Positions 40,508-62,810 of a stretch of 64,000 nt of DNA are shown here, one piece after another. Position numbers and translations under genes: made by a program. Position 1 is the stretch's first letter; each line of letters begins with the position of its first letter. The stretch comes from Psilocybe cubensis (taxonomy: Eukaryota): assembly GCA_017499595.2 (NCBI GenBank), contig CM039008.1:2232001-2296000 (forward strand). Direction: 5' to 3'. The notes under the pieces are model-generated. The model worked only from the letters and a program-made list of their open reading frames with translations. It ran no database searches and was not told where the DNA came from.

Positions 40508-43479
40508 TTATGAGGAATTGCATACTGCCCGGGTTGATTGAACACTCGAGTTGACCGTCGACAGTATACTAGTAATGCTAGCGATGCCTGACGAAGTAAT
40601 ACTCTTAGGAATTGATATATTGCGGCGGCTGAATGAGGATGATGGGTCCGGTGGGTTGTAGAATTGAGCGTGCGACGGTTGGCTCGTGGTAGAGGAATTC
40701 TGCTGGTTGCGCCGAGCAGCATTCGATAACATGGTTTCAGGCATAGCTTGTACAGGAGAAGCTGGTCGTTTTGGAGTAGTAGGTAGCGGCGTAACACTCA
40801 AATTAGGGTCTCGCGCCCCTATCACGGCCTGTCTAATCAAGTCCACTGCTTGATTGATTCGTTTAACACTGGCATCTAAACCTACAAATCTCCTATAAAG
40901 AGGCCATTAGTAAGCACACATAGGTAATTTTACAGTGGGCGTTTCACACACCCAATCTCATCCAAAGAATGTACGTCTATATCGTAATTAGATATAAACC
41001 GCTCGACCATTTCAATGCCAATGTATCCTTTGCGTTGAATATGCAGCCTAAAGAGGAATAAATCATTTTCCAGTTGAGATATATCCTGCGGCATATTGTC
41101 GACTTTGACTGATATGGGTGTTGTCGTGCCACTACATGAGCGTACTAAACTGGAAGCAGCTGAGATCTTTCGGAATAATTGGAAAGGTGATACATTCGAT
41201 GCACTCATGCAGGCCAGACTACTAGGACGAGTGGAGTATCTCGATGAAGTTGGGCTTTTAGGAGAGATCGAGGGTGGAACTGAAGGCATCTCATAGTCGT
41301 GCTCTTTCGATAGGATTTTGGAATGTTGGGATGAAGCTTCAGAAAGCTTCACGCAAGAAGATTCCGGTTTGACAACACTGTTCAAAGGCGCCGATGGCTG
41401 CACAAGCGTTTCTTCATCTTCAACTGTGCCAGGAGAGGGTCTTGTCGTCATGATGTGTTCCAGAAGACGCTGCATATTTTCCACTTGTAGTTTGAGATCT
41501 TCTTGATCCTCACGCAGCAATTGTATAGCGGTGGGTGAATCAGCAGGCGCTTGCTGAGTATGGTTGACGTTCAAGCTTCTCCGGAGTTTGACGATCTCTT
41601 CATCACGAGCCTTAATGATTTCACGTAAGGCCACCGCTTCTTCAACGGCCTTGGTGGCTGCTGCTTCTGACTCACGAGCTGTGGCCCTGAGAAAGCGAAG
41701 ACGGAGGTCGGATGAATCAGGCTTGACGTTGAGCTCAGTTATTGTGGTTTTCATGTCGGCAACGAGTTCCAATAGGGTTGTGATCTGCCTGCTCTGAGTC
41801 TCAATAATATTCCACAATCTCCCCGCTTCGTTGTGAGCATTGATCGCCTCTTCTTCGTGTTCCTTGGATAGCACCTGCTGTTCGAGAAGATCCAGCTTGA
41901 TCGAGTTGATGACCTTTTCTGCTTTCCGACCACTTTCATCCTTTGACGCTAATCGATATTCCAACACTTTCTGCTGCTGCTTCAGGTGTAGATTTTCGCG
42001 TCCAAGGGCGTCAAAGTTCTTCTGAAGTTCTGCATGCGCCCACTTCCGGTCGGTTGCAATTGTCTCAAAGTGGGATGCGAGTTGCCCAATGTCGTCTTTA
42101 AATGTTTGGATAATATTCTCGTGTGGGGTAGTAAAAAAAGCGTACGATGGAGGGTTTTGCGATGCTTGATCAGGAGACGTGGGAATGGGGTCTATATTCG
42201 CAGCTCTATTTACTGAACTGCTGCTGGAATCAGAAGGTCTTTGAATAGTTTCCACGGTAACAGACTGGTCGACAGGACAAGGAAACCGAGAAGAGTCTCG
42301 TCTTGAGAGAGCAGGTGATTCAGGTGTCGGAATTTGTTTGGCTACCCGCTTTCGAAGGAGTTTTTCGAAGCATGCCATCCTAGCGGTAGAGAGTTCTGGT
42401 CCAGATTCGACATTGGATTGGTGCCTTTAGAATGTCTTAGGTGATTTCCTTCCATCGTAACCGAAGCATATACAAGACACGTACCATAGTTGTGACAGTT
42501 CAGTAGGATGTACATTGTACTTCAATCTGAAGTCAAGGGCCATTTTTCCGCTGATATGTCGGCAAGATTGGATGTCTTCAATAAAATTACGTATATCCGA
42601 GTCGGCTTGAGGTGAAAGGTCGAAACCCTCTTCAGTATGGTCAGAGACCCCTTCTCTGTCCCAAGTCTCGAAAATCTGTTCCATGCTTTCCAAATCCTCC
42701 GAGGATATTGACGAGGGTACCGAAGATATCAAGGCCTTGTTGAGGCTTCGCACAGTATGCAAACCGACAGCAAAACTTTTGAAGTCATAAAACCCAGTTT
42801 TGGTGTCGATGAGTTTCCTAGATATGCATTAAATAAATTCCTGGAAATGACTATGGAGGAAAATATCTGATGGCCTACATGACTCGATACAGTAACTCGA
42901 ACGAAAGGTCAGGATCCGAAGCCATATAGAGTGACATTACGCTACGCTCTGAAAAACGTAGCGGTGAGAATATTATAACAGCATTAGGGTTTAGAACATA
43001 CTAGGAAGAAGCCCATCAACAGGACTTCTGGAAAAAAAGGCTTCCTTGAACTCAGCCACGTCGGCGGAGGTTACAGGAGGCAACGTTTGCTCAATGGATG
43101 GTGCTTTAGCATCTGAAATGCCTTTGATTTTAGGTAGAGGGCCCTCTGCAAAAAAGTATGCTATAGTGCAAGCAAGGAACAGAGAATGACATAACTCACC
43201 CGTTTTCAATAGCTTCTCATCCAATATCTCTCCTGCCTGAACCCACCCTGCTAATCGGATGACGACTGCGAGCTCTGGTTTTGTCAATTTCCCAGTTCCA
43301 TCTTTGTCTGCAATTGACCATATGTCCCGAATTTGTTTGAAAGATAGACCACTCTGCTTGAAGAGACCAATTGCCGTTTCTACGCCCAAATATTCTGAAG
43401 GATTCCAACTGCCCGTGTTCATTTCCAACAGTCTACTGGCGAGAGCCATTTCTTTGGCGGATGGTATAAAGCATTCCAT
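40508..43479 (-). CDS. Divergent Ede1/Eps15-like protein: three EH-like repeats plus long coiled coil
   Basis: FIPSAKEMALA...LFKQSGLSFKQIRDIWSIADKDGTGKL...RLAGWVQAG...EGPLPKIKG, second and third EH-like repeats, coiled-coil exon 40930-42378. The 3' end is approximate. Confidence 0.8.
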
Positions 43480-43867
43480 GCTCCTCGTTAGGTCTAAGAC
43501 CGAGTAGTTGGGGGTCTTCTGAGTCAAGAGGATTCATAGGTGTGCCATGGGAGCTGGTTCATATTGGATTGTCGTATGCACAGGATCGAAGGATCCTCGA
43601 TAATGCGATGCCTGTCTTACGCATTGATCAGAAAATTTTAGCTTGATAAAGGTTTCTAAGTGATATAGAGAAAAATCTTACCCAGTATAGGTGGGTCATA
43701 TTTTGGACGTGTTGATGGTTAAAGAAAAGCATAGTCGGGACATTGTTCCGCGGAATGAGAAATCTTGGCCCGGTGGCTGTGTCTTCCCCAGACCCTACCA
43801 CAACGAATACCTGCTCGGTGCGACTTGGGTGCCGTGCAACCCTCTGATTCCCTCCCACCCACCCACA

Positions 43868-46531
43868 ATGTTCGAAAATTCTCAGAATCTTTTGATAACC
43901 GGAGGGACATTCACTGCACAGACAATCTTTCCTTCTCGAAATGAGGGACACGAAGGTGCGCAAACTCCGCATACTCGGTATGCCTTCATGTAATAACTGT
44001 TTCGAGCAGGACTTACATCCATACAAGACAAAATTGCTGTGGGAGCCTTTCACAACTCAGCGGAGCGCTATGACCCACCTAAATGCCACCCGAATACGCG
44101 CGAGATTGTTCTCAAGAAAATCATGGACTGGGTGAGAGACGCCAACAACTTCTTCATGTGGTTGTATGGTCCTGCTGGCGCCGGCAAATCTGCAATTGCG
44201 CAGACCATTGCCGATATGTGCTACACTGAGGGACTGTTAGTCGCGAGTTTCTTTTTCTCTAGAAATTCAGTGAACCGGAAAGACGAAACACTGTTGATTA
44301 CAACTATTGCGTATCAGCTCTCCATCGCCATTCCAGAGACCCGCGAACGAATCGGAAAGGCCGTCGAGCTTGATCCTATGATACTGTCAAAGTCTCTAGA
44401 AGCTCAGATACAGTCACTTATTGTGGAACCTTTGAATGAAGCAGCCCTAGAGGACCGATCAACAACATCACGACCAAGGCTTATCATCATAGACGGCCTG
44501 GACGAGTGCGGCGTGCCCAAAGTACAACGCTACATTCTTGATACTTTGCTCTCTGCTTCCCAAAAGCTCTGTCTTCCTCTACTTTTTCTCATAGCAAGTC
44601 GGCCAGATCCTCATATTCGTGATGCTTTCAATCAGGACCTGTTAAACTCACTGACGACCCGCATAGTTCTTGATGATTCCTACCAACCCGACGATGATAT
44701 CAGAGTATTCCTTCTCTCCAGATTCAATGATGTCAAGAGGAAACACCCGACTCTTATGCATCGTCGCCCTCCCTGGCCTGCGCCAATGGATGTTGAGCTT
44801 CTCGTACAAAAATCATCCGGTCAATTCATCTATGCTTCAACAGTCATGAAATATGTTGATTCACACCATCACTGGCCTCCTGACCGACTAGATATTGCAT
44901 TCGGGCTATCTATGACAGACGATAATACACCTCTTGCCGAGCTAGATAGGTTCTACCATCACATTCTTTCCTCTGTGGCGGACATCGGCAGAGTGATAGA
45001 TTTCTTCATGTTTCTCTTGCTTGTTCAATTCTGGACCAAAACAAGGAACATCGTAGAAGATTTCTTGTTCCTCAGACGGGGTGAACTGGACATTGTCCTT
45101 TGTGATCTCCATTCCCTTGTTTCGATACCCGAGCCAGAAGATGAATCCACTGAGCTGAGGGTCTTCCATGCATCCTTTCCTGACTTTCTGCTCGATCGCT
45201 CTCGCTCTGGAAAATTCCACCTCAATGCCGCCAGTGCGTCTGCCAGGATCGTGAGGTACTGCATACGCCACTTCAAAGATCCCAACGTCATGTGCCAAGG
45301 TATGAAGTACCACAACATTCTCGTCTCTAGAAAATAAAATAATGAATCGATTTGCTCACAACTCTCAGACGGGATCAACCACCATAACATCCGTTCACTG
45401 TTCATGCTTCAAATTTTGACAGCAGAAATAACCACCCAACTCTTGGACGATGTGTGTGACGTCGACATGGGTATGCAGTTATCATTTTGGACATCCGACG
45501 ACAATGTTATTGGGGTGTACGAGCACGATAACAAGCGACTCATTTCCTTTCTGATGTGGCTGGCATCGCAGGTCCGTTAACCTATGCGATTACTTTGATA
45601 CCATCATAGTCTCACATACATCAGCATCATCGTGGAATGTCGTTACTGCGTTTTTTCAATGGCCCAGTGGACCAATGGATTCTCAGCAGAATTCGGGATT
45701 ATCCCCACCAATATCTATTTAACCTGCTTCTTACAGCAGGAACTTTAACCAATTTTACCACTACAGATATATTCACCATTCTGGGACCCGAGTCTGTGGC
45801 GACCATGGATATCAATTCCAGCATCCAAAAACCCCGACGTTTCGATCCTCTTCAAATTTATTCCCCAAAGGACGAATACAAACCTTTCTATAGCATATTA
45901 ACCGAGTTTCTGAGAGACGCTAGTCGGTCAAAGGATTTTTACGTTGGTGAAAACCATTATGCAACACTCTCTATTTATGTTGCTGTGTTTCTCATCCACA
46001 ACATGTAAGTCCGTGCTTGCTACAATCAATTCACCGCTCAGCGGTTATGGCAGAATGAGGCCACCACCGGTTAATACCAATCCTCAGACGATGTATGTGT
46101 TCCAACCTCATCATATATATTAGTTGATTATCTCATTTACCTTGTAGACACCCGAGAGCTAGTCAGGAGGCCCAAAAGCTAGGTTGTTACCTGCTTACAG
46201 AGAGCCTACTTAAGTCACCGAATTCGCCAGACCTTGCCAGAGTATTGCAAAATTACAACCCAAGGATAGAATCCATTGCACCACTCAACGAGGATATTGA
46301 AAAATCCGTTGGTGCAGCTTTTGAGTATTTAAGGGTATGCTGCTCTCTCCAAATTGATCATATCTGTTAACAGTCGACCTACAGAGATTCCAAAACAGAG
46401 GCAATCCGGACACGCTCCTCTACATTGCTTACCAGAACATGAAAAGAGAAATCCCAAGTCCTAATGGGTATATTACTTGGAGACCACCATCGCTACTCGT
46501 CGGGTTGTTGGATTATGATGTGACATTTTAG
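43868..46531 (+). CDS. Fungal NLR-like NACHT NTPase (NWD2-like) with short N-terminal motif and non-repeat C-terminus
   Basis: GAFHNSAERYDPPKCHPNTR, Walker A GPAGAGKS, ASFFFSR, Walker B IIIDGLDEC, IASRP, SSGQFIYASTV, FHASFPDFLLDRSRS. The 3' exons were reconstructed by eye. Confidence 0.9.
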
Positions 46532-46636
46532 CATCCACATATTCAATATTTAGTCTCCAACTACGACAACAAGCGGTACGTGGATAATTTCGGATAGTGA
46601 TCAGGCAAAGTGAATGCTAAGTCTTCCTAAAGTCTC

Positions 46637-47600
46637 TCAATCGTAGAAAACGAGGGCTCTTAACTCGATCGATTCTCTCAGAGGCGTTCCCTCGGGTGTG
46701 TTTGGATCACTGAAACCCGTATGAGGAGTGAAAATGGCAACGCTGCCATCTTGCACCGAATCGAAGCTAGAAGACGAGATCAATTACGTGCACTCAACCT
46801 TAGAAGACGTCAGCACGCACCATTTTATAAGAACAATCTCTTCCGGAGTCATTCCATGCAAATACTTCCACTTGTGGTTTGGGTTGTATTTCACACCGAG
46901 CGTCTCCCCCTCGCGATCATCATACACAAGAGCCACGGGCACGGTGTCGTTTGGTTCAACACTTCGATAATCGCACAGAGCTAATGGCCAATCAATGGCA
47001 GGGTGTCCAATTGGCCTCCATAGGTTGATAATTTGGAAACGTTTCTCGAGAAGTTTAGGTGCATCTGAGGCCGGCAGGTGTCGGTGTACCCGAGCGATGG
47101 ACGATCTTGTCGTTTGGTCTACATGGACTTGGGCTACAGGCTGGCGGCGGTCAGGGTGGTCGTCAACCTGCCCAGGACGTCTGCGACGGATGGCTATACG
47201 AGTAAATGGAACAATGAATTACTTATTTCAATTTGAGTGAGAAGCCGCGGGGCGTACTATGATCAAACAACTCGACCCGGCTAGCCCCTGTCAATTTTTT
47301 GATGAGTTCGATACTCTCTGGGTAGTATTGCGAGTAGATTTCTTCATCGTTGGCGAAGGATGTATGTTTCGACGTGTGTCTAAAGTATTGGAATCCGGTG
47401 GTATCCAAAGAGACGGTATCCTCCTTGCCACGAAGATTCTCTATGACCATCTCCTTTTCCTCGCGTGTGAAATTCTTCTTACGCTCCCCAGTTGCAGAAT
47501 CGGCGTTGATATGCTGGAAAGCTCGCACTCCGCCCTCAGGTTCGACGAAATAGAGAAGCTTTGCGGTGGTAAACGCGGGGGTGTCGTTTGCAGCTGACAT
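46637..47600 (-). CDS. AsaB/CmcJ-like (7alpha-cephem-methoxylase P8 family) non-heme iron oxidoreductase
   Basis: SLDTTGFQY, YYPESIELIKKLTGASRVELFDH, VHVDQT, FQIINLWRPI..DWPLALCDYRSV, TPHTGF, RESIELRALVFYD-stop. Confidence 0.88.
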
Positions 47601-48008
47601 TGCCTTGTTCAAACTTCAGATCGAAGGTGAGAGGATGTGGGTAGAATATTAACTGTGAGATCCATGCCTTTCACAGCTTTATATAGTCAGATGTTCCGAT
47701 TATTAAACGTGTATAGCCAACTTCCAGACGTAATGGATGAGAAAGACTGTGTCAAAACAATCCGTGTGAGTTCATCTCCTACACTTCTTGCGTGCTTGAG
47801 TTGAGACCAAGATAGGGGCAGCTGACTTAGCCTCTTACATAACCAACCACCCGCTTACAAACTACCTTATGCCGAGCCTAAGCCGAGCCACGGGAAGTGA
47901 CGGCTGCTGCAAATCGCATTAGATGCGGGCCCTATTACTAAACCAAAAGTGCCAGCAAAATGCCATTGCGAGTTCTTTTTTTCAATTTAGCTTCAGCTTG
48001 AGACTATC

Positions 48009-49394
48009 ATGTCTGCATCCGTTATTCCAACGGCGTTGGAACCTCGGGAGGTATTCTGGCGCGACAACCAACCATGGCTTCTCTCATGCGGATACCAGCT
48101 TCGCCCTCGTTTCCAACCAGACTGGATACCGTCCTGGATCACGAATCCAAATTCTAAAAAGTCTCTGCTAGACACGGAGGATTATATTCGTAGAGCGGTG
48201 TGTCTGTTTTCAATTGACCCAGACATAATATCTCATTGATTATCGTTCAGCATACACCAGTCATGGACGCCATTAGGCTGACTGACAAAAAAGGTGTAAT
48301 GATGAAAAAAGTGAAAAAGCAAGATAACAAATGGGATACAGAGCTTGCTATCGCCCAATATGTATCTTCACCCGAGCTTCTAAGTCACCCAGATAACCAT
48401 TGCGTACCAATCTATGAGGTTTTAGACATTCCGAGTGATAACGACCACGTTATCATCGTGATGCCGCTCCTATACCCATTCCATCTTACGCGTTTCGATA
48501 CTATCGGGGAATGTTTAGATTTCTTCCATCAAATATTCAAGGTATACTTCACAATTGTGCTTTCAAACTATTAACGATTATCTAACAAGCCTTTAGGGAT
48601 TGCAATTTCTACATCATCACCACATAGCGCACCGGTAAGCTAAGCCTATAGAATCCATTTAAGCGTAAGTTCCACTATTTCAGAGATTGTACAGAGAACA
48701 ATGTCATGATGGACCCAACAGAGATGTACCCGGAAGGATTCCATCCTGTCGAATACCAGTCAAATCGAGACCTCACTGGTAGAGCTTATCAGAAGTACAC
48801 AAGAACTGAGAGGCCCCCAAAGTACTATTGGATCGACTTTGGACTATCAGTTCGATTTGACAAGTCCGATAAGTTTCCACAGGCGATTACCCTTCGAGGA
48901 GGTGATAAATCTGCCCCTGAATTCCGAGATTTGGCAAACGTGTATACAAAGCGAGATCCTTTCCCAACGGATATCTACTACCTGGGAAATCTTATCAGAA
49001 TGTTCTTCACAGAGGTATCGTCGTCATACATGTCTTCACTTCTCATGCTGCTTCATTACTAAACACATATTGTCCCTCTCAGGGCCACCCCCTCATTATC
49101 TACGGTTTCAAACCAGGCTTGCATTTCATGAAACCTCTTGTTGCAGCAATGGTACAAGAAAATATGAGCAAGCGACCGACAATCGACCAATGTGTAACGC
49201 ACCTTGAGGAGATTATTCGCTCTCAAAGCGCCTGTACTCTTCGATCCCAGGTTTGGCACAGTAACGACGATGTTTTTGAATATCTCATACGTTTCTTCCC
49301 TCACTGGGCGCGCCGCCTGAAATTTATGATTACGCGGACACCTCCAGTGCCATCGTGGAATCGGAGACCGAGGTCTACCCGGAAAGAGACTTAG
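48009..49394 (+). CDS. Agaricomycete-specific AgaK1-type protein kinase, copy 1
   Basis: FWRDNQPWLLSCGYQLRPRFQPDWIPSW, HPDNHCVP, IAHR|DCTENNVMMD, YWIDFGLS, GGDKSAPE, DPFPTDIYYLGN. Confidence 0.9.
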
Positions 49395-49961
49395 AGTATG
49401 TTGGTGACATCATGTCGAATGTTTACCGTTCTTGTTCATGCTTGAGCTTCATGTACTATCTGCTTTTTTCTCTGTCAATCTATGTCAGCTTCATCTTATT
49501 ACTATTGAAAACGCTTATATGTTGATACATACACTTCTAGACCATATAAATGACAAGAAGTTTCCCGGAATACTAACGGAAACGGCGCAACCTGCTCCGC
49601 GGGATCTATAAATAACCTAGTTAAGGAGGCATTTTTGCGGCTACCCTTTGGTTCGAATCCGATGATTTAACTGCGTTATATTTGCAGGTGCAATGAGCAG
49701 GCTGTGAAGGCTATTCTACATATACAGAAAATGCAAGTAATGGTACAATATTACGCGATTGCGATATTAAACATGACTATGGAGAATTAAAATTGGAGTG
49801 GTACTAAATAAACAGTGCAGGAAAAGGCAAATTGGGATGCTGTACATGAAACAATGAGCAAAATGAAACAATGAGCAAATTGAAAGCTGGGTAAAAACTG
49901 AGCGACTAATGTACATCAGCGGGTTATACAGAGATATGGAAAAAGAAGTTGAACGTGAATC

Positions 49962-52814: not shown

Positions 52815-53737
52815 GATGCTAAGAGGTAACTCCTGAAGAAGACGTGGAAAGGTTGCATGGGCTTGTGTCTATATGAGTCATTTTAGCCACGAGGCAGTCC
52901 GGGACCCGTTTCAAGCTTCGATGTGGAATTAGGGTGGGGAACTATCACGTGTAGAACGTAGACACTGGTATTTGGCGTGAATATGCCTACTCGAAGATTT
53001 CTGCAGCGTTGAGTGCATTATCCTGCAGAAAAACTGGGCGGTTAGTTTCAGTTAGCGCAGCATAGTTACAACACATACCGTCAAGCCTGCGAAGATCTGA
53101 CATCATTGACATCCTTCCCCATATTCGATTGACTGAATCTGCTGCCTAAAATAATTAACGAATTCAATCTTAACGCCGCATGAAGTGTTGGGAGACGTAG
53201 TTACCATGTCCTTCTGTAAAGCGTCTTCAACCATGCGTTCAGGCGGCTGTAATGTCAGCGAAAGCAACAAAAGAGTGTCTTTCTGCAATTCAAAATTTCC
53301 TGTGGATGCCCTGATGGCGCGCGTCTATGGATGGGTAAGCACTATAAGCGAGTAAAAAAGCGAATAGAGGGATATCAGAGTGGAAAGGGGGAGAATCATG
53401 AGTGATAGTGGGCTGTGTGAAGGAAATGTTGTCAACATATTTTCAACGCCTGACATGACTGACTGTAATTACATCGCCGCTTAAATTTTTGTTTTGGTGT
53501 AGTCTGGCTTGGCACAGTACCGTAGACCAAGTGCAGACTACGTATTGAAAACTTGAGAACAGTCGACAACAATGATGTTTCGTACAATATATTAATTCGT
53601 GACCGTGTACAATGCGCCATACCGTGCCATACCGTACATACCGTACTAATTATCTCAGACTTCAACTGCCAGCACGCTGCACGCAGGCGCCATGAAAACA
53701 TTAAAATCAAACATTTCGGGTCTTCAACAGGGTCGCT

Positions 53738-55099
53738 TCACCGAGTCACTCGAGAGGATGGAGGTGCTGAAATTGACCTGCGGCTCCATGAGGGAACAGC
53801 TGGTGTTTGCGTAACAATATACCATATACGGCGTGGCCAGTGAGGAAGTAATCGGTAGATAAAACCAATTGGGTTATCTGTATTATGCCATACCTGCGAG
53901 CGAAGTGTTGAAGGATTGCGAGAGCAAATGATTTCTTCGAGATGGATAACACATTGATCGATGGTCGGGCGCTTACTTGGGTCTTCTTGTACCATGGCAT
54001 CGACGAGGGGTTTCATGAAACCGAGGCCATAGATATACCCGTCGATATTATCAGGGTGACCCTACCGGCAATAATGAAGTCAATAACAATAACAATATAG
54101 AGGGTTTAGAGATACCTCAGTAAAGTATATTCGAATCAAATTTCCCAAATAGTAGATATCGGTCGGGAATGGGTCACGGGCAGTGTGTAAGTGTTTGATG
54201 TCCTGAAATTCTGGCGCTGACTTGTCTCCTCCTCGCAATGTAACAGCACGAGGAAACTTGTAAGACTCTTCAAAATGGACCGATAATCCGTAATCGATCC
54301 AGTAATATTTAGGAGGGCATTGCGTCCTTGTACACTTGGGACTTGCAGGGCCAGTGTAATCTCGGTTCATGCGATATTTCACAGGGTGGAACCCTTCAGG
54401 ATAGATTTCAGATGGATCCATCATTACATTATTTGCTGTACAGTCCCTGAGAATTGCATTGGTTAACGTCCTGGGACAAAACATTGAACTCACCGATGTG
54501 CGATATGATGACGATGGAGGAATTGTATACCCTTGAAAATAGGTTAGACGCCGTATTATGGACGAGATTCAACAAACACACTTTAAAAATTTGATAGAAA
54601 AAGTCCAAACATTCCCCGATGGTATCGAACCGAGTAATATGAAAAGGATACAGCAAAGGCATCACGATTATGGAATGTTCAGGGTCATTCGGGATATCCA
54701 AGACCTCATAAACAGGCACACAGTGGTTATCCGAGTCCTTCATCAGCTCTGGAGAAGAAACATATTGCGATATGGCGAGTTCCCAATCATATTCATTGCC
54801 TGCCTTACGCACTTTCTTGAGCATAACAGGTTTGTCATCTCTAGCACGAACCGCATCCATCACTGGTATTTGCTTAGAGATAATGAATATAGGTTTAGAG
54901 AGAGGACGTCAAAAATTTAAAGACATACACCTCGTCGAACGTTATCCTCTCTCTGTCGGACCTCATATCTTTCAGCAGGCGGGTTTGTTACCCAAGATGG
55001 GATCCAGTCTGGTTGATACCGTGCACGAAGTTGATATCCGCGAGAGAAGAGCCAAGGCTGTAGATCGCGCCAGAAAGTTTCCTCGCTATCCAGCTCCAT
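53738..55099 (-). CDS. AgaK1-type protein kinase, copy 2
   Basis: FWRDLQPWLFSRGYQLRARYQPDWIPSW, IAHR|DCTANNVMMD, YWIDYGLS, GGDKSAPE, DPFPTDIYYLGN; same intron positions as copy 1. Confidence 0.9.
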
Positions 55100-55502
55100 T
55101 CCGATTCAAGCCAGGAGTATAGCTGCTATTGAAACTCGAGTGAGTGTATGACGACGTAAATAGCTCGCAGATGCAGAAGCAACCAGAATATGAATAGGGA
55201 CTAAAAGGTGTTGGATTCAGAATACATTTCTCACGGATGTCAAACCATGTCCCTTGGGTCAGATGAACTACTTTTTTTAAGGAACAATAGGAACTGACAA
55301 TGATGATAGAACCTGGTTGAATACTGTACAACATGACACGCAAATGATACACAAAATAGCAGAAGTAGGATAAAAATACGAGTTACAGTCCATCAGTCGA
55401 GTTGTAGTTTGTAATTTCAAGGTTTGATGTTGCAGGCTCGCAGCTACCGTCCAATGCCACAAGATTACATTTGTCCATCTTAGCTGAGAGGTGCAGAGGC
55501 TT

Positions 55503-57682
55503 TCAACGGTTTTGCCCCACGGACGGACTTTCTGGGATCCCAGAAGAAAACTTATTTTTCTTCCCCGCTGTGGGGCTGTTGTCCACTTCTTCCGTCCGCC
55601 GTTTGCGAGCAGTTCCAGGAGTACGGGGAGTAGCTGGCGTATGAAATGGGGTATCTTGAGACTGCAAGGAGTGAGGTGGGGTAATTGGTTCCGGTTTCAA
55701 AATGGATGGCGAAGCTTTCACGACTGGGTCGGTTTCTTCAGGCTCGAGAGCAGCGATGGCATCATCAACAAACCCCAAGAAGGTGTCGTATTCAGCATCC
55801 GATGGCGCAAGAAGATCCATAAGCGGCACCTTAGGTGCCTTTGACCTGCATTCCTTCTCCTTCCGGGTTGCATGTTTGATGAGGAAGTTTCCAAGAGAGG
55901 TCAGCAAGGCGGAAAAGCACTCAAAATATGGTGTAAGCTCCGTCGTAGGATCGTAGAGAAAGGCTGTTTTCATTCCGATGGCAACGACAACATCCTCTTG
56001 CCATGCCACAAGCGCTCTAGGTTCCGATTCCAGGCGCTCATGTGGTCCTGTATACGTGCTACATATCCAGGCAAACACGTAGAAAAAGGATTCCAAGTCA
56101 TCGAGATAGTCGTGTGGCCGAGCATGCTCTCCGTTTTTTTCGCTTCTAAGAACGGTAATTGATTGGAATGCCCGTGTGCCCTAGAAAAACATTAAGTATT
56201 CGAAAGCAAAGGTAAGTTATGGGATTCAAGGCTTACCGTTCGAAAGGTGCCTGTGAGTGGAGCTTGTCGTGTCAGGCAAATAGCCATGTCGAGATCGATT
56301 AGGACTCCCCGTGAACCTTCCACGGAGCCCTCCTTTCCATGAAGGATATTGTTTATACTGACATCACGATGCAGGATGTGCTTGTCGCGCCAGAGATTTC
56401 TATGGCCTGTATAGTAAAATTATTAAAAGACAACTCGTAACATCGGAAATGCATAGTGCTCACCGTTGACAGCGTCCCGAAAGGCGAACAGTAAGTGACG
56501 GCGATTGTTAAAGTAATCCAAAGGCTTTCCATACGCTTCTAGGACGATACGGCTGAATATGCGATTATGCGAGAGGGACTCCGTAAGGTCACAATTGGGA
56601 ACATCTCGAAACTGTGCCACATCATCCTGTCCATTGTCCTGATAGGTGACCATTTGCCCAACTCCTGCTACCCCAGCAACTTCAGCAAGGAGCTTGCACT
56701 CCGGTTCACGCCCAGCAGATCTCCATGAATCTTTAATTAGAAATGGTGTACCATCGCAATCCACCACATTCCAACAGACCGTTCCTCGACCGCGCATTGT
56801 GTTACGAGAGAAGGCGATTGCTGACGATCCTTCAGCAACTCGATACTCTCGCATACCAAGACCCTTCACTTCCCAGTGATTATGCAACGTAATATAACGT
56901 GAATTATTTCGCCAGAAGATATTAGTATCAAAGCCAATTTTTTGATTGTTGGTAGAGCAGAAACCGAGTACAATTCTGACAAAGTTGCCGGGTTGTTCGT
57001 GGATATTGAATCGTTGACTTTGAATGGCGCCGGATCGATCAAATAAGAATAAACGCGCTTTTTTCTCGGTGAGAATGATGGAGTAGACAAATCTTCGATG
57101 ATGCTGCTCTATGAAGCATTGTCTACATTGAATAGTTATAAAGGGCCGAGAGTCTCAATCGAGAGGGACAAAAGCTTACCTTGCATAGACGGCAACTTGA
57201 TCTGTGTTCATCATGTCCTTTTGGTTCCTCTCTGTCTTGATTTCTCCTGGGGAGGCACATAGTGCATACGATGCTCGGATTTCGTTGTTGTTCTCTTCAG
57301 TGTTAAGGTTGGCGCCACTACCTAGGATCATAAAGTCGGGCGAAGTCCTACATCTCGAGCTGTCGTCAGCTGACCCATGACGGTTGAGGTCTTTATGGGG
57401 AATGTCGATGTTGTGTGTGTCGACCAATTTCCTCCCACGTCCGTTATACTTAAAGTAAGCCAAAATGTGGCCCAATAGTTCGATGAACGGCGTGTATAGT
57501 GCTTTCTCGTCATTTGGTTTCTTGGGTATGGTATGCCAGCGGCCTTGATCGTAGTATGGAGTTCGAGAGATGAAGTCTTCAATACATCTATCGGCGACTG
57601 AAGATTTGAAAATCTTGTTATGGTAGGTTGAGCCCATGGACACGATGCCACCTGCAAGCTCTACGTGAAGCGCATCGGACAT
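55503..57682 (-). CDS. FunK1 fungal protein kinase (Pkinase_fungal); N-terminus unresolved
   Basis: VYAR|QCF..RRFVYS..FDRSG, RGRGTVCW, LIKDSWR, ILHRDVSINNIL, VLIDLDMA, T|GTRAFQS, HDYLDDLESFFYV. The 5' end is set at the first in-frame ATG. Confidence 0.88.
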
Positions 57683-58306
57683 GTCTTTCACCGTCTGAGG
57701 GGGACATGCTGTTCGATTTGTCCCAACCTTGAACGGAGTGTCTTCTGTGGTCTTGGTAGATGTATAGGTGCTCGTGTTCTTATCGCAGTGCGGCGAAGGC
57801 TGTCAGATGGTGGTGGTTGGCGTGGGGGAGTTTATAATGACTCTGACTCTGAGCGCTGGAAGGCATCTTGCGTAAGTAATTCTACTAAACTGAAAGTGAT
57901 TCATACCTTGTGAGTATTTATACTACCAACTACCTAATTCCATAATCATCCAACAAAGGACTTTCCGAATGTGTTGAATTAAGTGGCACCGATGAAGATG
58001 GTGGTTGAAAAGAAAGCGTGACTGCCGTATTGGGCCCGTCCGCCCCTCGTCATTGTTTGTCGCGCTCGGTAATTACTTCACGTGATCGTGTCTGATCGCC
58101 GTTGGGGTGGCCAACCAATGGCCAACACCAAGCCAACACCAGTTGAGAACCGACAAAAAGAAAAGTTTACTATATTACTTTCCTGTATTGAACACAATAT
58201 ATGAAGCGCAGTAGTACAAAGCATATTAATAAACGATAACTTTCGTGGATGTAATCAATTCCAGCGGCTGAGAAGCGATGGCCCGAGATAGTAATGGTCA
58301 GATATG

Positions 58307-59688
58307 CTACGGAATGCTGTGGTTGTGTCTGCGTCGCTCAGGTGTAAGGTGTGGTATAGCTGGTGTTTGTGTGAGGATGTAGGTAATGCGACGAGCCCAG
58401 TGAGGAAAAAAGCGGTACAGGAAGCCAAATATACTGTCAGTACTATGCCACACCTGTGCCCGAAGTGTGCAAGTGCTTTGAGCTTGGATTATGTCTTCAA
58501 GGTGAACAACACATTGATCAATAGTTGGACGTTTGCTCATGTCTTCGTGAACCATAGCGGCGACAAGGGGTTTCATGAAAGAAAGTCCGAATTTGAATCC
58601 CTCGATGTCATTACCGCGTCCCTGTCATAGCGAAAATGCGCATTTAGAAACAAGCAAAGGGAGTACAGGAGAACAGGAGAAATAAACCTCGGTAAAGTGT
58701 ATTCTGATCAAATTTCCCAGATAGTAGATGTCCGTTGGGAAGGGATTCCGCCTAGTGTGCAGCTGTGCCATATCTCGAAACTCCGGGGGCGATTTGTCAC
58801 CTCCGCGTATTGACATTGCTTGAGGGAATTTGTCCGACTCCTTGAATTGCACCGATAGACCAAAATCTATCCAGTAATATTTCGGAGGTCGCTGTGTTCT
58901 CGTATATTTCTGAAATGCCGGGCCAGCAAGATCGCGGCTCATGTTATACTTGACGGGGTGAAATCCATCTGGGTAAATCTCAGATGGATCCATCATGACA
59001 TTATTTTGCGTACAATTGCTTATAAAAGTTCAAATAATGCATATACGCAAGTTATTAAACCTAACTCACCGATGAGCTATATGGTGTTTATGCAAAAATT
59101 GAAGACCCTGTTTGTGGGCTTTGAGCAAAGGTTTCCGCGGAATTATAGGTTCGCACCTTGAATATTTGATGAAAAAAATCCAGACACTCTCCAATGGTGT
59201 CAAATCGTGTGGCGTTGAAGGGGTGTAGTAATGGCATGACAATAATTACATATTCACTATCGCCTGGAATATCCAACACTTCGTAGATGGGTATACAGTG
59301 ATTATCGGGATCTTTCAGAAGGTCCGGGGAAGACACGTATTGCGAAATGGCAAGCTCTTGGTCAAACCCATTGTTATGTTTGTATACCTGCTTCAGCATA
59401 ACAGGTTTTTTATCTTTTAGCCTAATGGCATCCATGACAAGCGAAGGCTGGAGAGTGATAAGCGTATGCTATGATTTAGAGCTTGACCAGGACACTCACT
59501 CCTCGACAAATGCGATCTTCCCTCTTTCGCATTTCAAACACATCGGCTGGAGGATTTGTCACCCACGATGGAACCCAACCTGGCTGAAAGCGTGGACGAA
59601 GTTCGTATCCACAAGACAGCAGCCATGGCTGTTTCTCAACCCAAATCATTTCTTGAGGTTCCAACGCCATGCAAGGTCGAGAGGCCAA
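58307..59688 (-). CDS. AgaK1-type kinase, copy 3, with HRD changed to HRN (probable pseudokinase)
   Basis: Intact frame and same introns as copies 1 and 2; catalytic loop spliced as CAT CG|C AAT TGT = H R N C. Confidence 0.87.
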
Positions 59689-61649: not shown

Positions 61650-61762
61650 GGTTGATAAACATGTAAAGAAATAGTTAAAATGTCGTCGAATGAATTGTTA
61701 GTCCAATCACACACACACACTTATCTATATTACTTGGGTAATGCAGAGGCTTAGTGGTATTC

Positions 61763-62810
61763 CTATCTATTAGACGAACTTGCAGGGAGCGCAGGTAAAA
61801 CCTTGTTTCTTTTACCCGCTGTGAGTCTGTCTTTGATCTCCCCCTCCTGTTGTTTGCAAGTCAAACTAGGTGTTATAGTGCAACGGGTATCTAGACATAG
61901 AAAGCTGCATCCTAAGAGTGGTGAGGAGGGGTAATTGGTTTGGGCTGGGGAGACGACACAGAAAGGTCGAAATCTTCGAGCTCGCAATTATCAATAGCTT
62001 TCTCAATAAATCCTATGAAAGTGTTGTAATCCGCGTTCGAAGCCTCCAAAAGACTGAGGAAGGGCTTCCTTGGCTCTTTGCTTATAGATTCATCTTCCTT
62101 CTGGATGGCGTGTTTGAAGAGGAACATAGCCATGTCTTTGATCATTCCCAAGAGAGTGTGGAAATATGGTGCAATGTTAACCGTCGGATACATCAAGAAC
62201 TTTGTCTTCACGCTGGCGGCAATGATAGGGTCTGGGGAGTCCCAGTAAACAAGTACACCTGGTCCATCTTTAATGGATTGATTAGGGCGGTGGTACATGT
62301 TGCAGATCCATAAAATCATATAAAAGAATGATTCAAAATCGTCTAGGTAATCGTGTGGGCGAGCATGCTCTCCATATCGTTCCTTTTGGATGACATTGAT
62401 GGATTGGAATAAATGAGTTCCCTGTTATTGAAACATATCAATATTAAAACTATGCAGGCCAGTGCAGAACTTGCCGTCTGGAATGTGACAAAATGAGACG
62501 GTTCACGCTGTGAGTAAATTGACGTGCCCGGGCCAGAGTCAATCAAAACCCGTCTATTTTGCACTCCATCAACCTGCCAGTGGCCTTCTTGATAGTGTGG
62601 AGTTTGTTGGATAAAGGCATCAATGTTCTTTTCTCTAATTACAGTCTTGAGGAGTTTCTGGAGTTTTTTATAATTGTCATCCACGATACCACCCTCGATC
62701 TTCTGCTGACGTGCATTTGACATTGCTATCTCCATAGGAGGGATTTCTCGCGGACCTACGCAGACCAATCTTGATAGGCGCCTTCTGTACTCGTTGTAGT
62801 AGTAGAGCAA
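61763..62810 (-). pseudogene. FunK1 kinase pseudogene with a large internal deletion
   Basis: N-terminal IEGGIV...IDAFIQQTPHYQEGHW fused directly to a degenerate RVLID segment, then GTHLFQS...HDYLDDFESFFYM and a C-terminus homologous to 55503-56096, with a premature TAG at 61912-61914. Confidence 0.8.

What the first reader, a model, noticed from the sequence alone, without database searches (positions are those of the whole stretch)
40508..62810. Candidate fungal immune/allorecognition locus: NLR head-to-head with a degenerate Ede1 copy, next to a kinase/pseudokinase block
Seen: the NACHT ATG (43868) and the divergent Ede1-like ATG (43479) face apart across ~390 bp. Downstream lie three AgaK1 kinases (one HRN), FunK1 plus a dead copy, an F-box/LRR gene and a helical pseudogene. 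Upstream in the window are a second Ede1-like paralog and a dead Vps4 paralog. Established: some fungal NLR-like proteins survey host trafficking/lipid proteins (HET-E/HET-D with HET-C in Podospora; PLP-1 with the SNARE SEC-9 in Neurospora), and plant NLRs guard kinase/pseudokinase decoys. Inference: fast-evolving, catalytically degraded copies of endocytic/ESCRT proteins and kinases here may be decoys or guardees for this repeat-less NLR. The gene birth/death and TE load fit an accessory immune island.
Basis: partly seen in the sequence, partly recalled or inferred. Interest (0 to 1): 0.75.

Follow-up and report, generated by a model that had tools for sequence, protein, structure and literature searches.

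The report
Mushroom NLR paired with variable EH gene
In the mushroom Psilocybe cubensis an immune-receptor-like gene sits back to back with a fast-evolving copy of an endocytosis adaptor gene, which occurs as two very different alleles, so the pair is a testable candidate for a self/non-self recognition locus in mushrooms.

Summary
The core observation holds. The window is Psilocybe cubensis. A NACHT/NPHP3_N STAND ATPase with no Pfam repeat domain (ATG 43868, +) and an EH-domain/coiled-coil gene (ATG 43479, -) diverge across 388 bp. Downstream lie three paralogous kinase-like genes (one HRN), an intact FunK1 and a truncated FunK1 copy.

Corrections:
- The EH gene is not a copy of canonical Ede1. 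It belongs to a fast-evolving, EH-degenerate clade inside an ~800-aa EHx3/coiled-coil family that lacks UBA.
- An NvfI-like dioxygenase gene lies between the NACHT gene and the first kinase.
- F-box/LRR identity is unproven. The "helical pseudogene" was not found.

New evidence:
- Orthologues of the NACHT gene and of the fast-clade EH gene are linked in 5 of 6 taxa examined. In one metagenome contig they are the only genes shared with the window.
- In P. cubensis the EH gene plus the shared promoter forms a ~3.5-kb island of 6-14% divergence between two haplotypes. The flanks differ by 0.6% or less, and all 7 listed indels that fall in coding sequence are in frame.
- The kinase block shows no such polymorphism and is absent from the metagenome contig.

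Reading: an NLR plus a variable target or decoy, analogous to plp-1/sec-9. Binding and cell death are untested. The kinase and Vps4 "decoy" part is unsupported.

The parts
40508..43479 (-). EH-domain/coiled-coil gene of the fast clade of an ~800-aa Eps15/Ede1-like family without UBA. The annotated protein P0121 (884 aa) starts at 43449. Exons are 43449-43200, 43145-43002, 42948-42879, 42817-42485, 42424-40952 and 40892-40511, followed by the stop codon.
   Evidence: Pfam EH. P0121 threads exactly onto these exons. Spliced contigs confirm three of the introns. The P. cyanescens orthologue is 50% identical over 801 aa.
43480..43867 (.). 388-bp divergent intergenic region, the presumed shared promoter. 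It could not be aligned in the alternative haplotype between about 43551 and 43834.
   Evidence: Sequence. Loose ends at 43551 and 43834 in X10 and X11.
43868..46531 (+). NACHT/NPHP3_N STAND ATPase gene of 777 aa (= P0278). It has 7 exons, a short N-terminal motif of the form MFxxxxNxx[IV]xGGTF, and an all-helical C-terminal domain with no Pfam repeat family.
   Evidence: Pfam. GT..AG joints in spliced contigs. The spliced translation equals P0278. The AF2 model and its STAND-type fold hits.
40537..44021 (.). Island of 6-14% nucleotide divergence between two P. cubensis haplotypes. It covers the EH gene, the promoter and NACHT exon 1 with intron 1.
   Evidence: X9 has two half-depth contigs (0 against 81 differences over 42813-43551) that merge to the left of about 40537 and to the right of about 44021. 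X10 and X11 carry only the alternative allele.
46640..47690 (-). NvfI-like 2-oxoglutarate dioxygenase gene, convergent with the NACHT gene. Coordinates are approximate.
   Evidence: CT..AC joints 46766/46821 and 47193/47260. PDB sequence hits to NvfI at 3.7e-17.
47991..49391 (+). Kinase-like gene K1, with catalytic loop FRD and DFG kept.
50130..52868 (-). Spliced gene with possible LRR-like beta/alpha units; F-box not shown. In this strain it is interrupted by a 1292-bp transposon-like insertion (51444-52735) with inverted-repeat ends.
   Evidence: The joints 50129/50181 and 51279/51338 are seen in X10 and X11. The 51443/52736 joint is seen in X10, X11 and X9, and X9 depth over the insert is 1093-1728 against about 77 in the flanks. 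38-nt terminal inverted repeats. Low-confidence model.
53777..55105 (-). Kinase-like gene K2, with LRD and DYG. The small exon before the catalytic loop looks disturbed.
55503..57802 (-). FunK1-type kinase gene with HRD and DLD present.
   Evidence: PF17667. Sequence.
58352..59667 (-). Kinase-like gene K3 with HRN in place of HRD; a likely pseudokinase.
61915..62741 (-). Truncated FunK1 copy. [quoted passage not shown]
14620..16932 (+). Second fast-clade EH paralogue (P0124, 660 aa), with EH domains further degraded (23 bits).
27161..28314 (+). AAA ATPase gene with changed Walker A lysine and Walker B glutamate. It is Vps4-like or Cdc48-like; which of the two was not decided.

Best explanation
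The real unit is a two-gene module, not the whole 22-kb block.

**Gene 1** is a STAND/NLR-type ATPase. It has:
- a very short N-terminal strand motif (MFxxxxNxx[IV]xGGTF);
- a NACHT/NPHP3_N nucleotide-binding domain;
- an all-helical C-terminal domain in which Pfam finds no repeat family.

**Gene 2**, on the other side of a 388-bp divergent promoter, is a duplicated and degraded copy of an Eps15/Ede1-like endocytic adaptor (EH domains plus coiled coil).

**Shown**
- The pair has been inherited together in Psilocybe, Galerina, Agrocybe and an uncultured relative, while neighbouring genes changed.
- Spliced contigs of both genes, joined at GT..AG introns, occur in two runs guessed to be RNA.
- In P. 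cubensis the EH gene plus the promoter exists as two deeply diverged alleles that both keep the reading frame.

**Inferred**
- The EH paralogue is the variable partner that the NLR's C-terminal helical domain senses. It would act as a guardee or decoy for a trafficking target of pathogens, or as an allorecognition ligand.
- A mismatched or modified partner lets the NACHT domain oligomerise.
- The N-terminal motif then passes the signal to a cell-death effector encoded elsewhere.

This would work like plp-1/sec-9 or het-e/het-c. It is not a member of those families.
For: **Identity**
- The NACHT exon is 99% identical to P. cubensis JR316_0011810.
- The EH protein is P0121.

**Fast, degraded EH clade**
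- In the tree, P0121 groups with P. cyanescens P0122, P. cubensis P0124, Agrocybe P0125, Galerina P0126 and Flammula P0123 (SH-aLRT 99, stem 0.6, end branches 0.35-1.67).
- This clade is sister to a slower one that includes a third P. cubensis copy, P0127.
- Pfam EH scores are 23-66 bits in the fast clade. They are 123-142 bits in the slow ~800-aa family and 166-175 bits plus UBA in canonical Ede1-type proteins.

**Linkage**
- P. cubensis: KAH9476238 and KAH9476239, adjacent in the window.
- Galerina: NACHT KDR70136 and EH KDR70137, on the same scaffold.
- Agrocybe: D9613_010461 and D9613_010463, on the same contig.
- P. cyanescens: CVT25_012531 and CVT25_012537, both on one 25,935-bp contig.
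- Metagenome contig L001: two tandem EH genes at 5771-11598, and a NACHT gene at 15779-17976 that is 62% identical to the window's.
- On L001 no other ORF of 70 aa or more matches the 64-kb window.
- Of the five best non-self NACHT hits (ranks 2-6), four are these EH-linked genes.

**Polymorphism**
- DNA run X9 holds two contigs over 42813-43551. One has 0 differences (depth 40.5). The other has 81 differences and 8 gaps (depth 43.4). Flank depth is 77-93.
- Spliced contigs of X10 and X11 differ from the window by 31 of 492, 64 of 484 and 105 of 878 letters across the EH exons.
- The same two runs show 0 differences over 44207-45297 (X11) and 44386-44970 (X10), inside the NACHT gene.
- X9 differs by 3 letters in 44021-45331, 24 in 45387-49727 and 28 in 49946-60399.
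- The 7 listed indels that fall in coding sequence sum to multiples of three: 5 in the EH gene and 2 in the last coding exon of the NACHT gene.
- The alternative allele occurs in 2 of the 3 studies laid.

**Selection**
- Among the 39 listed coding differences in 40508-41124, 25 are nonsynonymous and 14 synonymous (pN/pS 0.56, pS 0.105).
- The ratio is 4:6 inside the 59-codon conserved C-terminal block and 21:8 outside it.

**NLR nature**
- Fold hits are SAMD9, Avs3, Apaf-1, Avs5, NLRP2 and CED-4.
- The model has a strand at residues 6-11 and a helical C-terminal domain with pLDDT 80-94 in its helices.

**Precedent**
- NLR-guardee pairs in fungi: passages of PMC10197012.
- Short N-terminal amyloid-like motifs in Agaricomycete NLRs: passages of PMC9815663.
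Against: - No interaction, cell-death or co-regulation data exist.
- The nucleotide-binding part of the NLR is nearly monomorphic in the runs seen. In plp-1/sec-9 both partners are polymorphic. Only the C-terminal exons show some change in X10 and X11: 9 of 383 letters at 45622-46004, plus in-frame insertions.
- Only two allele classes were seen, in contigs of three runs from two studies.
- Only 40 of 472 difference rows and 32 of 219 contig pieces were shown to me.
- Trans-species polymorphism was not tested.
- pN/pS of 0.56 fits relaxed constraint as well as diversifying selection.
- The head-to-head orientation is not conserved. The genes lie on the same strand 4.2 kb apart on L001, one gene lies between them in Agrocybe, and five accession numbers lie between them in P. 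cyanescens.
- In Flammula alnicola the EH relative (contig of 381,414 bp) and the two NACHT hits listed (contigs of 266,262 and 84,350 bp) are on different contigs.
- Outside the window and L001, adjacency rests on accession and locus-tag order, not on DNA.
- None of 7 NACHT orthologues has an NPF motif, the classical EH ligand.
- No partner carrying the N-terminal motif lies in the window.
Confidence: 0.38

Rival explanations
1. The pair is inherited synteny without functional coupling. The EH gene is a redundant duplicate drifting under relaxed constraint. Its two haplotypes are an old neutral polymorphism or an introgressed segment that happens to end at the gene borders.
For: - pN/pS is 0.56, and most changes lie in disordered tails.
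- An intact paralogue, P0127, exists on another contig, so the linked copy may be dispensable.
- The orientation and spacing of the pair vary among taxa.
- The pair is not linked in Flammula.
- The NACHT family is very large: 3761 of the 8000 candidates scored reached E<=1e-5. Proximity to some NACHT gene is therefore not rare.
Against: - The linked NACHT genes are each other's closest relatives (ranks 2, 4, 5 and 6), not arbitrary family members.
- On L001 every other neighbour has been replaced while the pair stayed together.
- Both alleles keep the frame through 5 listed indels and a 111-to-114-nt replaced segment. The conserved C-terminal block shows mainly synonymous change.
- The divergent island is 3.5 kb long inside flanks that differ by 0.6% or less. 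This is the narrow footprint described for validated het genes (abstract of PMC11138114).
Confidence: 0.34
2. The whole block (NACHT, kinases and the LRR-like gene) is a split NLR-like allorecognition locus of the somA type recently mapped in Coprinopsis cinerea. The EH gene would be a bystander.
For: - The domain set is the same as at somA: NACHT genes that carry no repeat domain of their own, kinase genes and a neighbouring LRR gene on separate genes (abstract, Results and Discussion of bioRxiv 10.64898/2026.06.24.733965).
- Here the NACHT gene is followed by three kinase-like genes, FunK1 and a gene with possible beta/alpha repeat units.
Against: - At somA the NACHT and kinase genes are the hyper-divergent parts, and each NACHT is tail-to-tail with a kinase.
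- Here the NACHT and kinase region differs by only 52 letters in about 13.5 kb in X9.
- A dioxygenase gene separates the NACHT gene from K1, and the two are on the same strand.
- No kinase or LRR-like homologue accompanies the pair on L001.
- The preprint found the architecture only in close relatives of Coprinopsis.
- Homology to the somA genes could not be tested here.
Confidence: 0.1
3. The pair has a non-immune housekeeping role. An example would be a STAND ATPase that regulates a specialised endocytic adaptor, both driven from one bidirectional promoter.
For: - Both genes yield spliced contigs in the same two runs.
- The module is conserved across genera.
Against: - A housekeeping role does not explain degraded EH domains, long branches, repeated duplication or 6-14% allelic divergence.
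- The closest fold relatives of the ATPase are immune or cell-death STAND proteins.
Confidence: 0.1
4. The polymorphism is an artefact. On this view the divergent contigs come from a paralogue or a contaminant, not from an allele.
For: - All the evidence comes from assembled contigs, not reads.
- P. cubensis has at least three family members.
Against: - In X9 the two forms each have half the flank depth (40.5 and 43.4 against 77-93), and they merge into single contigs on both sides.
- X10 and X11 lack the window's form altogether.
- The known paralogues are only 32-43% identical in protein, far below the 86-94% nucleotide identity seen here.
Confidence: 0.05

Closest known systems
PLP-1 / SEC-9 (Neurospora crassa; het-z in Podospora, vic2 in Cryphonectria)
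   Same: An NLR-type protein is encoded next to a membrane-trafficking protein that it surveys. The trafficking partner is allelic and highly polymorphic. The pairing has arisen or been kept in several fungi (passages of PMC10197012).
   Different: - Here the partner is a degraded duplicate of an EH/coiled-coil adaptor, not the essential SNARE itself.
- The NLR has no patatin domain and no TPR repeats.
- Its nucleotide-binding part is nearly monomorphic in the runs seen.
- The lineage is Basidiomycota.
- No genetics have been done.
HET-E, HET-D / HET-C (Podospora anserina)
   Same: A NACHT NLR responds to allelic variants of a small lipid-trafficking protein, and this is read as a guard-guardee pair.
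   Different: - Those genes are unlinked.
- Specificity there lies in WD40 repeats, which are absent here.
somA locus of Coprinopsis cinerea (bioRxiv 10.64898/2026.06.24.733965)
   Same: It is a mushroom-forming fungus. The NACHT genes carry no repeat domain of their own and are clustered with kinase genes and an LRR gene. Alleles are deeply divergent, consistent with balancing selection.
   Different: - There the NACHT and kinase genes are the divergent parts and the LRR gene is conserved.
- Here the divergent part is the EH gene, and the kinase block is nearly invariant in the runs seen.
- There is no EH gene at somA according to the sections read.
- Homology was not tested.
Ede1 / Eps15 endocytic adaptors
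   Same: N-terminal EH domains are followed by a long coiled coil. Canonical Ede1-type proteins match residues 24-193 at about 30% identity. The Atlas structure search lists Eps15 and Eps15L1, at TM 0.3 or less.
   Different: - It is 884 aa long, against about 1200-1400 aa.
- It has no UBA domain.
- Only two weak EH matches are found (50.8 bits against 166-175).
- It has its own conserved C-terminal block.
Agaricomycete NLRs with short N-termini carrying amyloid-like motifs (NLR05/08/22/29/44 of PMC9815663)
   Same: It is a NACHT protein of an agaric with a conserved motif at the very N-terminus, predicted as a strand. The paper places such motifs at the very terminus, finds dozens per strain, and finds no partner motif in neighbouring genes.
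   Different: I could not score the motif against the paper's profiles. Its logos and supplements were not available to me.

Membership tests
NLR / STAND NTPase of the NACHT type | NACHT-type P-loop nucleotide-binding domain | tested here: met
   - PF24883 NPHP3_N at 2.2e-25 and PF05729 NACHT at 2.9e-8 on P0001.
- GPAGAGKS and DGLDEC are invariant in 9 sequences.
- Fold hits are Apaf-1, Avs3, Avs5, NLRP2 and CED-4.
NLR / STAND NTPase of the NACHT type | C-terminal repeat sensor domain (WD40, ANK, TPR or LRR) | tested here: not met
   - No repeat family was found by Pfam at E<=0.01 on 4 full-length orthologues.
- The model shows an all-helical domain from about residue 436 to 700. Whether that domain is a cryptic solenoid was not resolved.
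NLR / STAND NTPase of the NACHT type | N-terminal effector or signalling module | tested here: inconclusive
   - Only about 60 residues precede the NOD.
- A conserved motif at residues 1-17 is present in 16 of the 120 best hits. Of these, 14 have the GG core starting at residue 10.
- A strand is predicted at residues 6-11, but at low pLDDT.
Ede1/Eps15 family | Three canonical EH domains | tested here: not met
   Two EH stretches total 50.8 bits, and the third is not detected. Canonical proteins have 3 stretches at 166-175 bits.
Ede1/Eps15 family | C-terminal ubiquitin-binding domain (UBA or UIM) | tested here: not met
   No UBA is found in P0121, P0122 or any of 7 members of the ~800-aa family. 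UBA is found in 3 of 3 canonical proteins.
Ede1/Eps15 family | Central coiled coil | tested here: inconclusive
   No coiled-coil predictor was run. The heptad-rich 380-600 region is conserved with P. cyanescens. Weak coiled-coil family hits occur on relatives.
Linked NLR/target allorecognition pair (plp-1/sec-9 type) | Tight linkage of the NLR gene and the target gene | tested here: met
   They are 388 bp apart in the window and linked in 5 of 6 taxa examined.
Linked NLR/target allorecognition pair (plp-1/sec-9 type) | Deeply divergent allele classes at the target | tested here: met
   Two classes differ by 6-14% over the EH gene. They are seen in 2 studies and keep the reading frame.
Linked NLR/target allorecognition pair (plp-1/sec-9 type) | Matching divergent allele classes at the NLR | tested here: not met
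   - X11 has 0 differences over 44207-45297 and X10 has 0 over 44386-44970.
- X9 has 3 differences over 44021-45331.
- Only the C-terminal exons vary modestly.
Linked NLR/target allorecognition pair (plp-1/sec-9 type) | Trans-species polymorphism; cell death when non-self alleles meet | not testable with these tools
   This needs population and sister-species assemblies, plus crosses or co-expression.
somA-type split NLR locus (C. cinerea) | NACHT tail-to-tail with a kinase, and hyper-divergent NACHT and kinase alleles | tested here: not met
   A dioxygenase gene lies between the NACHT gene and K1, and both are on the + strand. The region 45387-60399 is nearly invariant in X9.
somA-type split NLR locus (C. 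cinerea) | Sequence homology to CC1G_06673-06676 and the flanking LRR gene | not testable with these tools
FunK1 kinases | Match to the fungal kinase profile PF17667 with the catalytic loop present | tested here: met
   3.9e-45 and 1.2e-8 on two exons. HRDVSINN and DLD are present.
AgaK1 kinases | Membership of the Coprinopsis-defined AgaK1 group | not tested
   No AgaK1 reference or profile was available. The family name appears in one figure legend of bioRxiv 10.1101/349894. K1-K3 are kinase-like by motifs and by an Atlas score of 0.93.

The most novel reading that the evidence does not exclude
This is a somatic-incompatibility or immune locus of a mushroom-forming fungus. An NLR with no Pfam-detectable repeat domain monitors a dedicated, duplicated decoy of the endocytic adaptor machinery. 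The decoy's allele classes are kept by balancing selection. When hyphae carrying different EH alleles fuse, or when a pathogen effector modifies the decoy, the NLR fires through its N-terminal amyloid-like motif. It would be the first target/decoy-type NLR pair described in Basidiomycota and the first to use an EH adaptor.
Probability: 0.2. Interest if true: 0.85.

Novelty: new variant of a known kind. Interest (0 to 1): 0.68.

Why it matters
What fungal NLRs recognise is largely unknown. In mushroom-forming fungi the first allorecognition locus was mapped only in a 2026 preprint.

This pair offers a concrete candidate that can be tested directly:
- the receptor, its likely partner and two natural partner alleles are all in hand;
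- the species can be crossed and grown.

If it holds, it would extend the guard/decoy logic of plant NLRs and the plp-1/sec-9 principle of ascomycetes to Basidiomycota. It would also show gene duplication creating a dedicated decoy of the endocytic machinery.

If it fails, the case still documents a narrow island of extreme allelic divergence that needs another explanation.

Tried and rejected
- **Complex prediction** (EH residues 1-300 and 690-800 against NACHT residues 440-751): verdict 'no answer', score 0.00, alignments not used. This is no evidence either way.
- **The look-up of sequencing runs**: no RNA holder listed. X10 and X11 are only guessed to be RNA. I treat them as transcripts because their contigs are joined at GT..AG or CT..AC introns, and those joints are absent from the DNA run X9.
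- **Parts of the kinase genes without contig cover in X10 and X11**: not interpreted.
- **Whole genome:** none is held for this window. I could not search for the canonical EDE1 or VPS4 of this strain. Only a third EH-family copy, P0127, on another contig was found.
- **Word-indexed homology searches of the EH gene:** they found 3 proteins and 4 proteins. Family size therefore rests on the exhaustive search.
- **Partner for the N-terminal NLR motif:** none in the window's six frames.
- **NPF motif in NACHT orthologues:** 0 of 7 have one.
- **Atlas search of P0121:** the best feature score was 0.84, so it is a lead only.
- **Single-sequence model of the LRR-like exon:** pLDDT 45, so no fold search was made.
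- **Earlier findings of this scan:** nothing was returned.
- **Literature searches for an EH/NACHT link in fungi:** 'EH domain'+NACHT+fungi+incompatibility returned 0 papers. In the Ede1+NLR+guardee search, none of the 8 papers listed contained 'Ede1'.
- **Supplementary tables I could not see:** PMC9815663 (neighbourhoods of short-N-terminus NLRs) and the somA preprint may bear on whether such pairs were already noticed.
- **MAT linkage as a cause of the divergence:** rejected. The island is 3.5 kb long with near-identical flanks, and the left neighbour is a glycosyltransferase-like gene.

Full report
**1. What the window is**

The large NACHT exon (44012-45334, +) is 99% identical to the Psilocybe cubensis protein JR316_0011810 (P0001). 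The spliced translation of seven exons (43868-46531) equals, letter for letter, the 777-aa model P0278 from another P. cubensis record. No whole genome is held for this window. Questions about the rest of the genome therefore had to be approached through protein databases.

**2. Check of the observation**

*The divergent pair*
ATG 43868 is on the + strand. A minus-strand ATG is at 43479. They lie 388 bp apart.
- The public annotation of the EH gene (P0121, 884 aa) begins at the next ATG, 43449. The P. cyanescens orthologue extends further and resembles the longer start.
- Pfam confirms NPHP3_N plus NACHT on the + gene and EH on the - gene. No repeat family is found on four full-length NACHT orthologues.

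*Downstream genes*
- Three paralogous kinase-like genes are present: K1 47991-49391 (+), K2 55105-53777 (-) and K3 59667-58352 (-). Exon-wise identity is 56-74%.
- Their catalytic loops read FRD (K1), LRD (K2) and HRN (K3). The DFG position is kept as DFG, DYG and DFG.
- They are too divergent for Pfam (Pkinase E=0.09 on one exon) and for PDB sequence search. The Atlas places one exon with basidiomycete kinase clusters at 0.93.
- The label 'AgaK1' was not tested.
- FunK1 (57802-55503, -) matches PF17667 and keeps HRD and DLD.
- A copy at 62741-61915 retains only its ends.

*The F-box/LRR gene*
- The gene is real. Spliced contigs join 50129/50181 and 51279/51338.
- It has no Pfam F-box or LRR match.
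- A low-confidence single-sequence model shows regular strand/helix units.
- In this strain it carries a 1292-bp insertion (51444-52735) with 38-nt inverted ends. The insertion is absent from three other runs. In X9, depth over the insert is 1093-1728, against about 77 in the flanks.

*Other points*
- I could not find the 'helical pseudogene'.
- Upstream, the second EH paralogue (14620-16932, P0124) is real. So is an AAA gene with changed Walker A and Walker B residues.
It is convergent with the NACHT gene, and spliced contigs of it occur in X10 and X11.
- The window also holds GMC oxidoreductase, Mid1, SDR, a pogo-type transposase and an MFS transporter. It is not purely an accessory island.

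**3. What the EH gene is**

An exhaustive HMMER search with P0121 found 394 relatives at E<=1e-3. They fall into three layers.

| Layer | Length | Pfam EH | UBA | Relation to P0121 |
|---|---|---|---|---|
| Canonical Ede1-type | 1188-1367 aa | 3 domains, 166-175 bits | present | match only residues 24-193, about 30% identity |
| ~800-aa family | about 780-860 aa | 3 domains, 123-142 bits | absent | Hypsizygus, Crucibulum, Panaeolus, and P. cubensis P0127 on another contig |
| Fast clade inside that family | 518-916 aa | 23-66 bits | absent | P0121 itself and its closest relatives |

- The fast clade has SH-aLRT 99, a stem of 0.6 and end branches of 0.35-1.67.
- It holds P0121, its P. cyanescens orthologue P0122, the upstream window paralogue P0124, Agrocybe pediades P0125, Galerina marginata P0126 and a Flammula protein, P0123.
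- The P. cubensis and P. cyanescens orthologues are collinear over 801 residues at 50% identity. They share conserved blocks at the first EH domain, the core of the coiled coil and a C-terminal block of about 60 residues.
- By comparison, the NACHT orthologues of the same two species are 73-78% identical.
- So 'degenerate Ede1 copy' is right in spirit. The parent, however, is the short family without UBA, and the gene is maintained rather than decaying.

**4. Linkage in relatives**

Database records give contig lengths, locus tags and accession numbers. In P. cubensis the two proteins have consecutive accessions (KAH9476238 and KAH9476239). This matches their adjacency in the window and validates the approach.

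| Taxon | NACHT | EH | Arrangement |
|---|---|---|---|
| P. cubensis | KAH9476239 | KAH9476238 | adjacent, head to head, 388 bp |
| Galerina marginata | KDR70136 | KDR70137 | consecutive accessions, same 593,681-bp scaffold |
| Agrocybe pediades | D9613_010461 | D9613_010463 | one tag between, same contig |
| P. cyanescens | CVT25_012531 | CVT25_012537 | same 25,935-bp contig |
| Metagenome contig L001 | 15779-17976 (+), 62% to the window's | two tandem genes, 5771-8286 and 8859-11598 (+) | same strand, 4.2 kb apart |
| Flammula alnicola | contigs of 266,262 and 84,350 bp | contig of 381,414 bp | not on the same contig |

- L001 was read directly as DNA. A beta-lactamase-like gene lies between its EH genes and its NACHT gene.
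- No other ORF of 70 aa or more on L001 has a match anywhere in the 64-kb window. No kinase, FunK1, LRR-like, dioxygenase or glycosyltransferase exon of the window matches L001.
- An ENA contig of 36,778 bp holds the same NACHT protein and EH pieces. It is probably the same organism, so I do not count it separately.
- The pair is therefore linked within 26 kb or less in 5 of 6 taxa.
- Four of the five best non-self NACHT hits (ranks 2, 4, 5 and 6) are exactly the EH-linked genes. The two genes have travelled together as orthologous partners.
- The head-to-head orientation itself is seen only in P. cubensis.
- Outside the window and L001, adjacency is inferred from record order, not from DNA.

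**5. Polymorphism within P. cubensis**

I laid contigs of four public runs on 40400-60399.

*Heterozygosity in run X9 (DNA)*
- X9 has two contigs over the 5' part of the EH gene. One is identical to the window (42813-44050, depth 40.5). The other has 81 differences and 8 gaps over 42813-43551 (depth 43.4).
- Further alternative pieces differ by 60 of 413 and 24 of 189 letters.
- The flanks are single contigs of depth 77-93.
- The two forms merge to the left of about 40537 and to the right of about 44021.

*Runs X10 and X11 (another study)*
- Their contigs are spliced at GT..AG introns and carry only the alternative form.
- Across the EH exons they differ from the window by 31 of 492, 64 of 484 and 105 of 878 letters. 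One 111-nt stretch is replaced by 114 unalignable letters.
- Their NACHT contigs have 0 differences over 44207-45297 (X11) and 44386-44970 (X10).

*Flanks*
- X9 differs by 3 letters in 44021-45331, 24 in 45387-49727 and 28 in 49946-60399.

*Reading frame*
- The five listed indels inside EH coding sequence sum to multiples of three: -2 and -1; +1 and +2; +3.
- An AC insertion listed at 42431 (X9 only) lies in the 42425-42484 intron of the exon model.

*Selection*
- I classed the 39 coding differences listed between 40508 and 41124. The table is cut there.
- 25 are nonsynonymous and 14 synonymous (pN 0.059, pS 0.105, ratio 0.56).
- The ratio is 4:6 inside the conserved C-terminal block and 21:8 outside it.

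*Interpretation*
- Two alleles that both keep the reading frame differ 10- to 40-fold more than their surroundings.
- The boundaries fall at the 3' end of the EH coding sequence and in the first intron of the NACHT gene.
- Half-depth in X9 argues against a stray paralogue. So does the absence of the window's form from X10 and X11.
- Such a narrow footprint is what was reported for validated het genes in Aspergillus fumigatus (abstract of PMC11138114).

*Limits*
- The data are contigs, not reads.
- Three informative runs come from two studies.
- Only 40 of 472 difference rows and 32 of 219 pieces were shown.
- No sister-species comparison was made.
- pN/pS of 0.56 is also compatible with relaxed constraint.

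**6. The NLR**

- The AlphaFold model (9-sequence alignment, mean pLDDT 68) shows a disordered N-terminus with one short strand at residues 6-11. A NOD module follows, then an all-helical C-terminal domain with pLDDT 80-94 in its helices.
- Foldseek's best matches are STAND proteins: SAMD9, Avs3, Apaf-1, Avs5, NLRP2 and CED-4.
- The N-terminal motif (MFxxxxNxx[IV]xGGTF) is present in 16 of the 120 best hits.
- Most of the other 104 hits are gene calls of 444-520 aa. I infer, without having checked, that they start after the first intron.
- PMC9815663 (passages read) describes basidiomycete-specific amyloid-like motifs at the very N-terminus of short-N-terminus NLRs. It finds dozens per strain and no partner motif in neighbouring genes, and proposes signalling to MLKL/HeLo-like effectors in trans.
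- That fits, but I could not score this motif against their profiles. No second copy of the motif lies in the window.

**7. How it most likely works**

*Shown*
- A co-inherited NACHT-EH pair.
- Spliced contigs of both genes in the two runs guessed to be RNA.
- Degraded EH domains and fast evolution.
- Two deep alleles of the EH gene and promoter.

*Inferred*
- The EH paralogue is the variable partner read by the NLR's helical C-terminal domain. It would be a decoy or guardee standing in for the endocytic adaptor family, or an allorecognition ligand.
- Mismatch or modification triggers NACHT oligomerisation and signalling through the N-terminal motif.

I put this at about 0.38.

*Rivals*
- Linkage by descent with a drifting duplicate: 0.34.
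- A somA-type split NLR locus in which the kinases and the LRR-like gene matter and the EH gene does not: 0.10. The domain set matches the Coprinopsis preprint. Against it, the kinases here are nearly invariant, are arranged differently, and are absent from L001.
- A non-immune role: 0.10.
- Artefact: 0.05.

**8. Comparison with what is known, and novelty**

- The pair works most like plp-1/sec-9 and het-e/het-c. It fails membership of those systems: it has no patatin, TPR or WD40 domain, its NOD is monomorphic, and the target family is different.
- I found no paper linking an EH protein to a fungal NLR. Supplements that could hold such neighbourhood tables were closed.
- I class it as a new variant of a known kind.
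That claim is that the kinases, pseudokinases and the dead AAA gene are further decoys.

Noticed in passing
window 51444-52735: A 1292-bp element with 38-nt terminal inverted repeats sits inside the LRR-like gene of this strain. It is absent from three other runs, where a joint with 5 shared letters marks the site. In run X9 its depth is about 14-22 times that of the flanks. It looks like a recently active non-autonomous DNA transposon.
   Followed up: partly
window 46335-46531: The public model P0001 uses a 39-nt intron (46335-46373) and ends early. Spliced contigs instead join 46333/46384. That gives the 777-aa model P0278, ending at 46531. A further GT..AG joint at 46574/46632 lies in the 3' UTR.
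   Followed up: yes
window 46640-47690 (-): An NvfI-like 2-oxoglutarate dioxygenase gene, with spliced contigs in X10 and X11, is convergent with the NACHT gene. The two transcripts abut at about 46.6-46.8 kb.
   Followed up: partly
window 27161-28314 (+): An AAA ATPase gene has Walker A GPPGTGTT and Walker B DKID, so it is probably catalytically dead. VCP-like ATPase and Vps4 are its best PDB sequence hits. Its conservation and expression were not examined.
   Followed up: partly
L001 5771-11598: The metagenome relative carries two tandem fast-clade EH genes. The large exon of the first is closest to the Agrocybe pediades gene (38% over 601 aa). Repeated duplication of this gene near the NACHT gene seems to be a theme.
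   Followed up: partly
window 10703-12256 (+): A pogo-type DDE_1 transposase ORF (PF03184, 2.4e-19) lies between the SDR gene and the upstream EH paralogue.
   Followed up: no
window 44148 and 46071-46462: There are in-frame insertions in the NACHT gene relative to the window: +CTT at 44148 in X9, and +TAC at 46071 and +6 nt at 46461-46462 in X10 and X11. Together with 9 differences in 45622-46004, these suggest that the NLR's C-terminal tail varies more than its NOD.
   Followed up: no
window 54083-54568 (-): K2 lacks a recognisable counterpart of the small exon that in K3 reads GLQFLHKHHIAH just before the catalytic loop. K2 may be a pseudogene or may be spliced differently.
   Followed up: no
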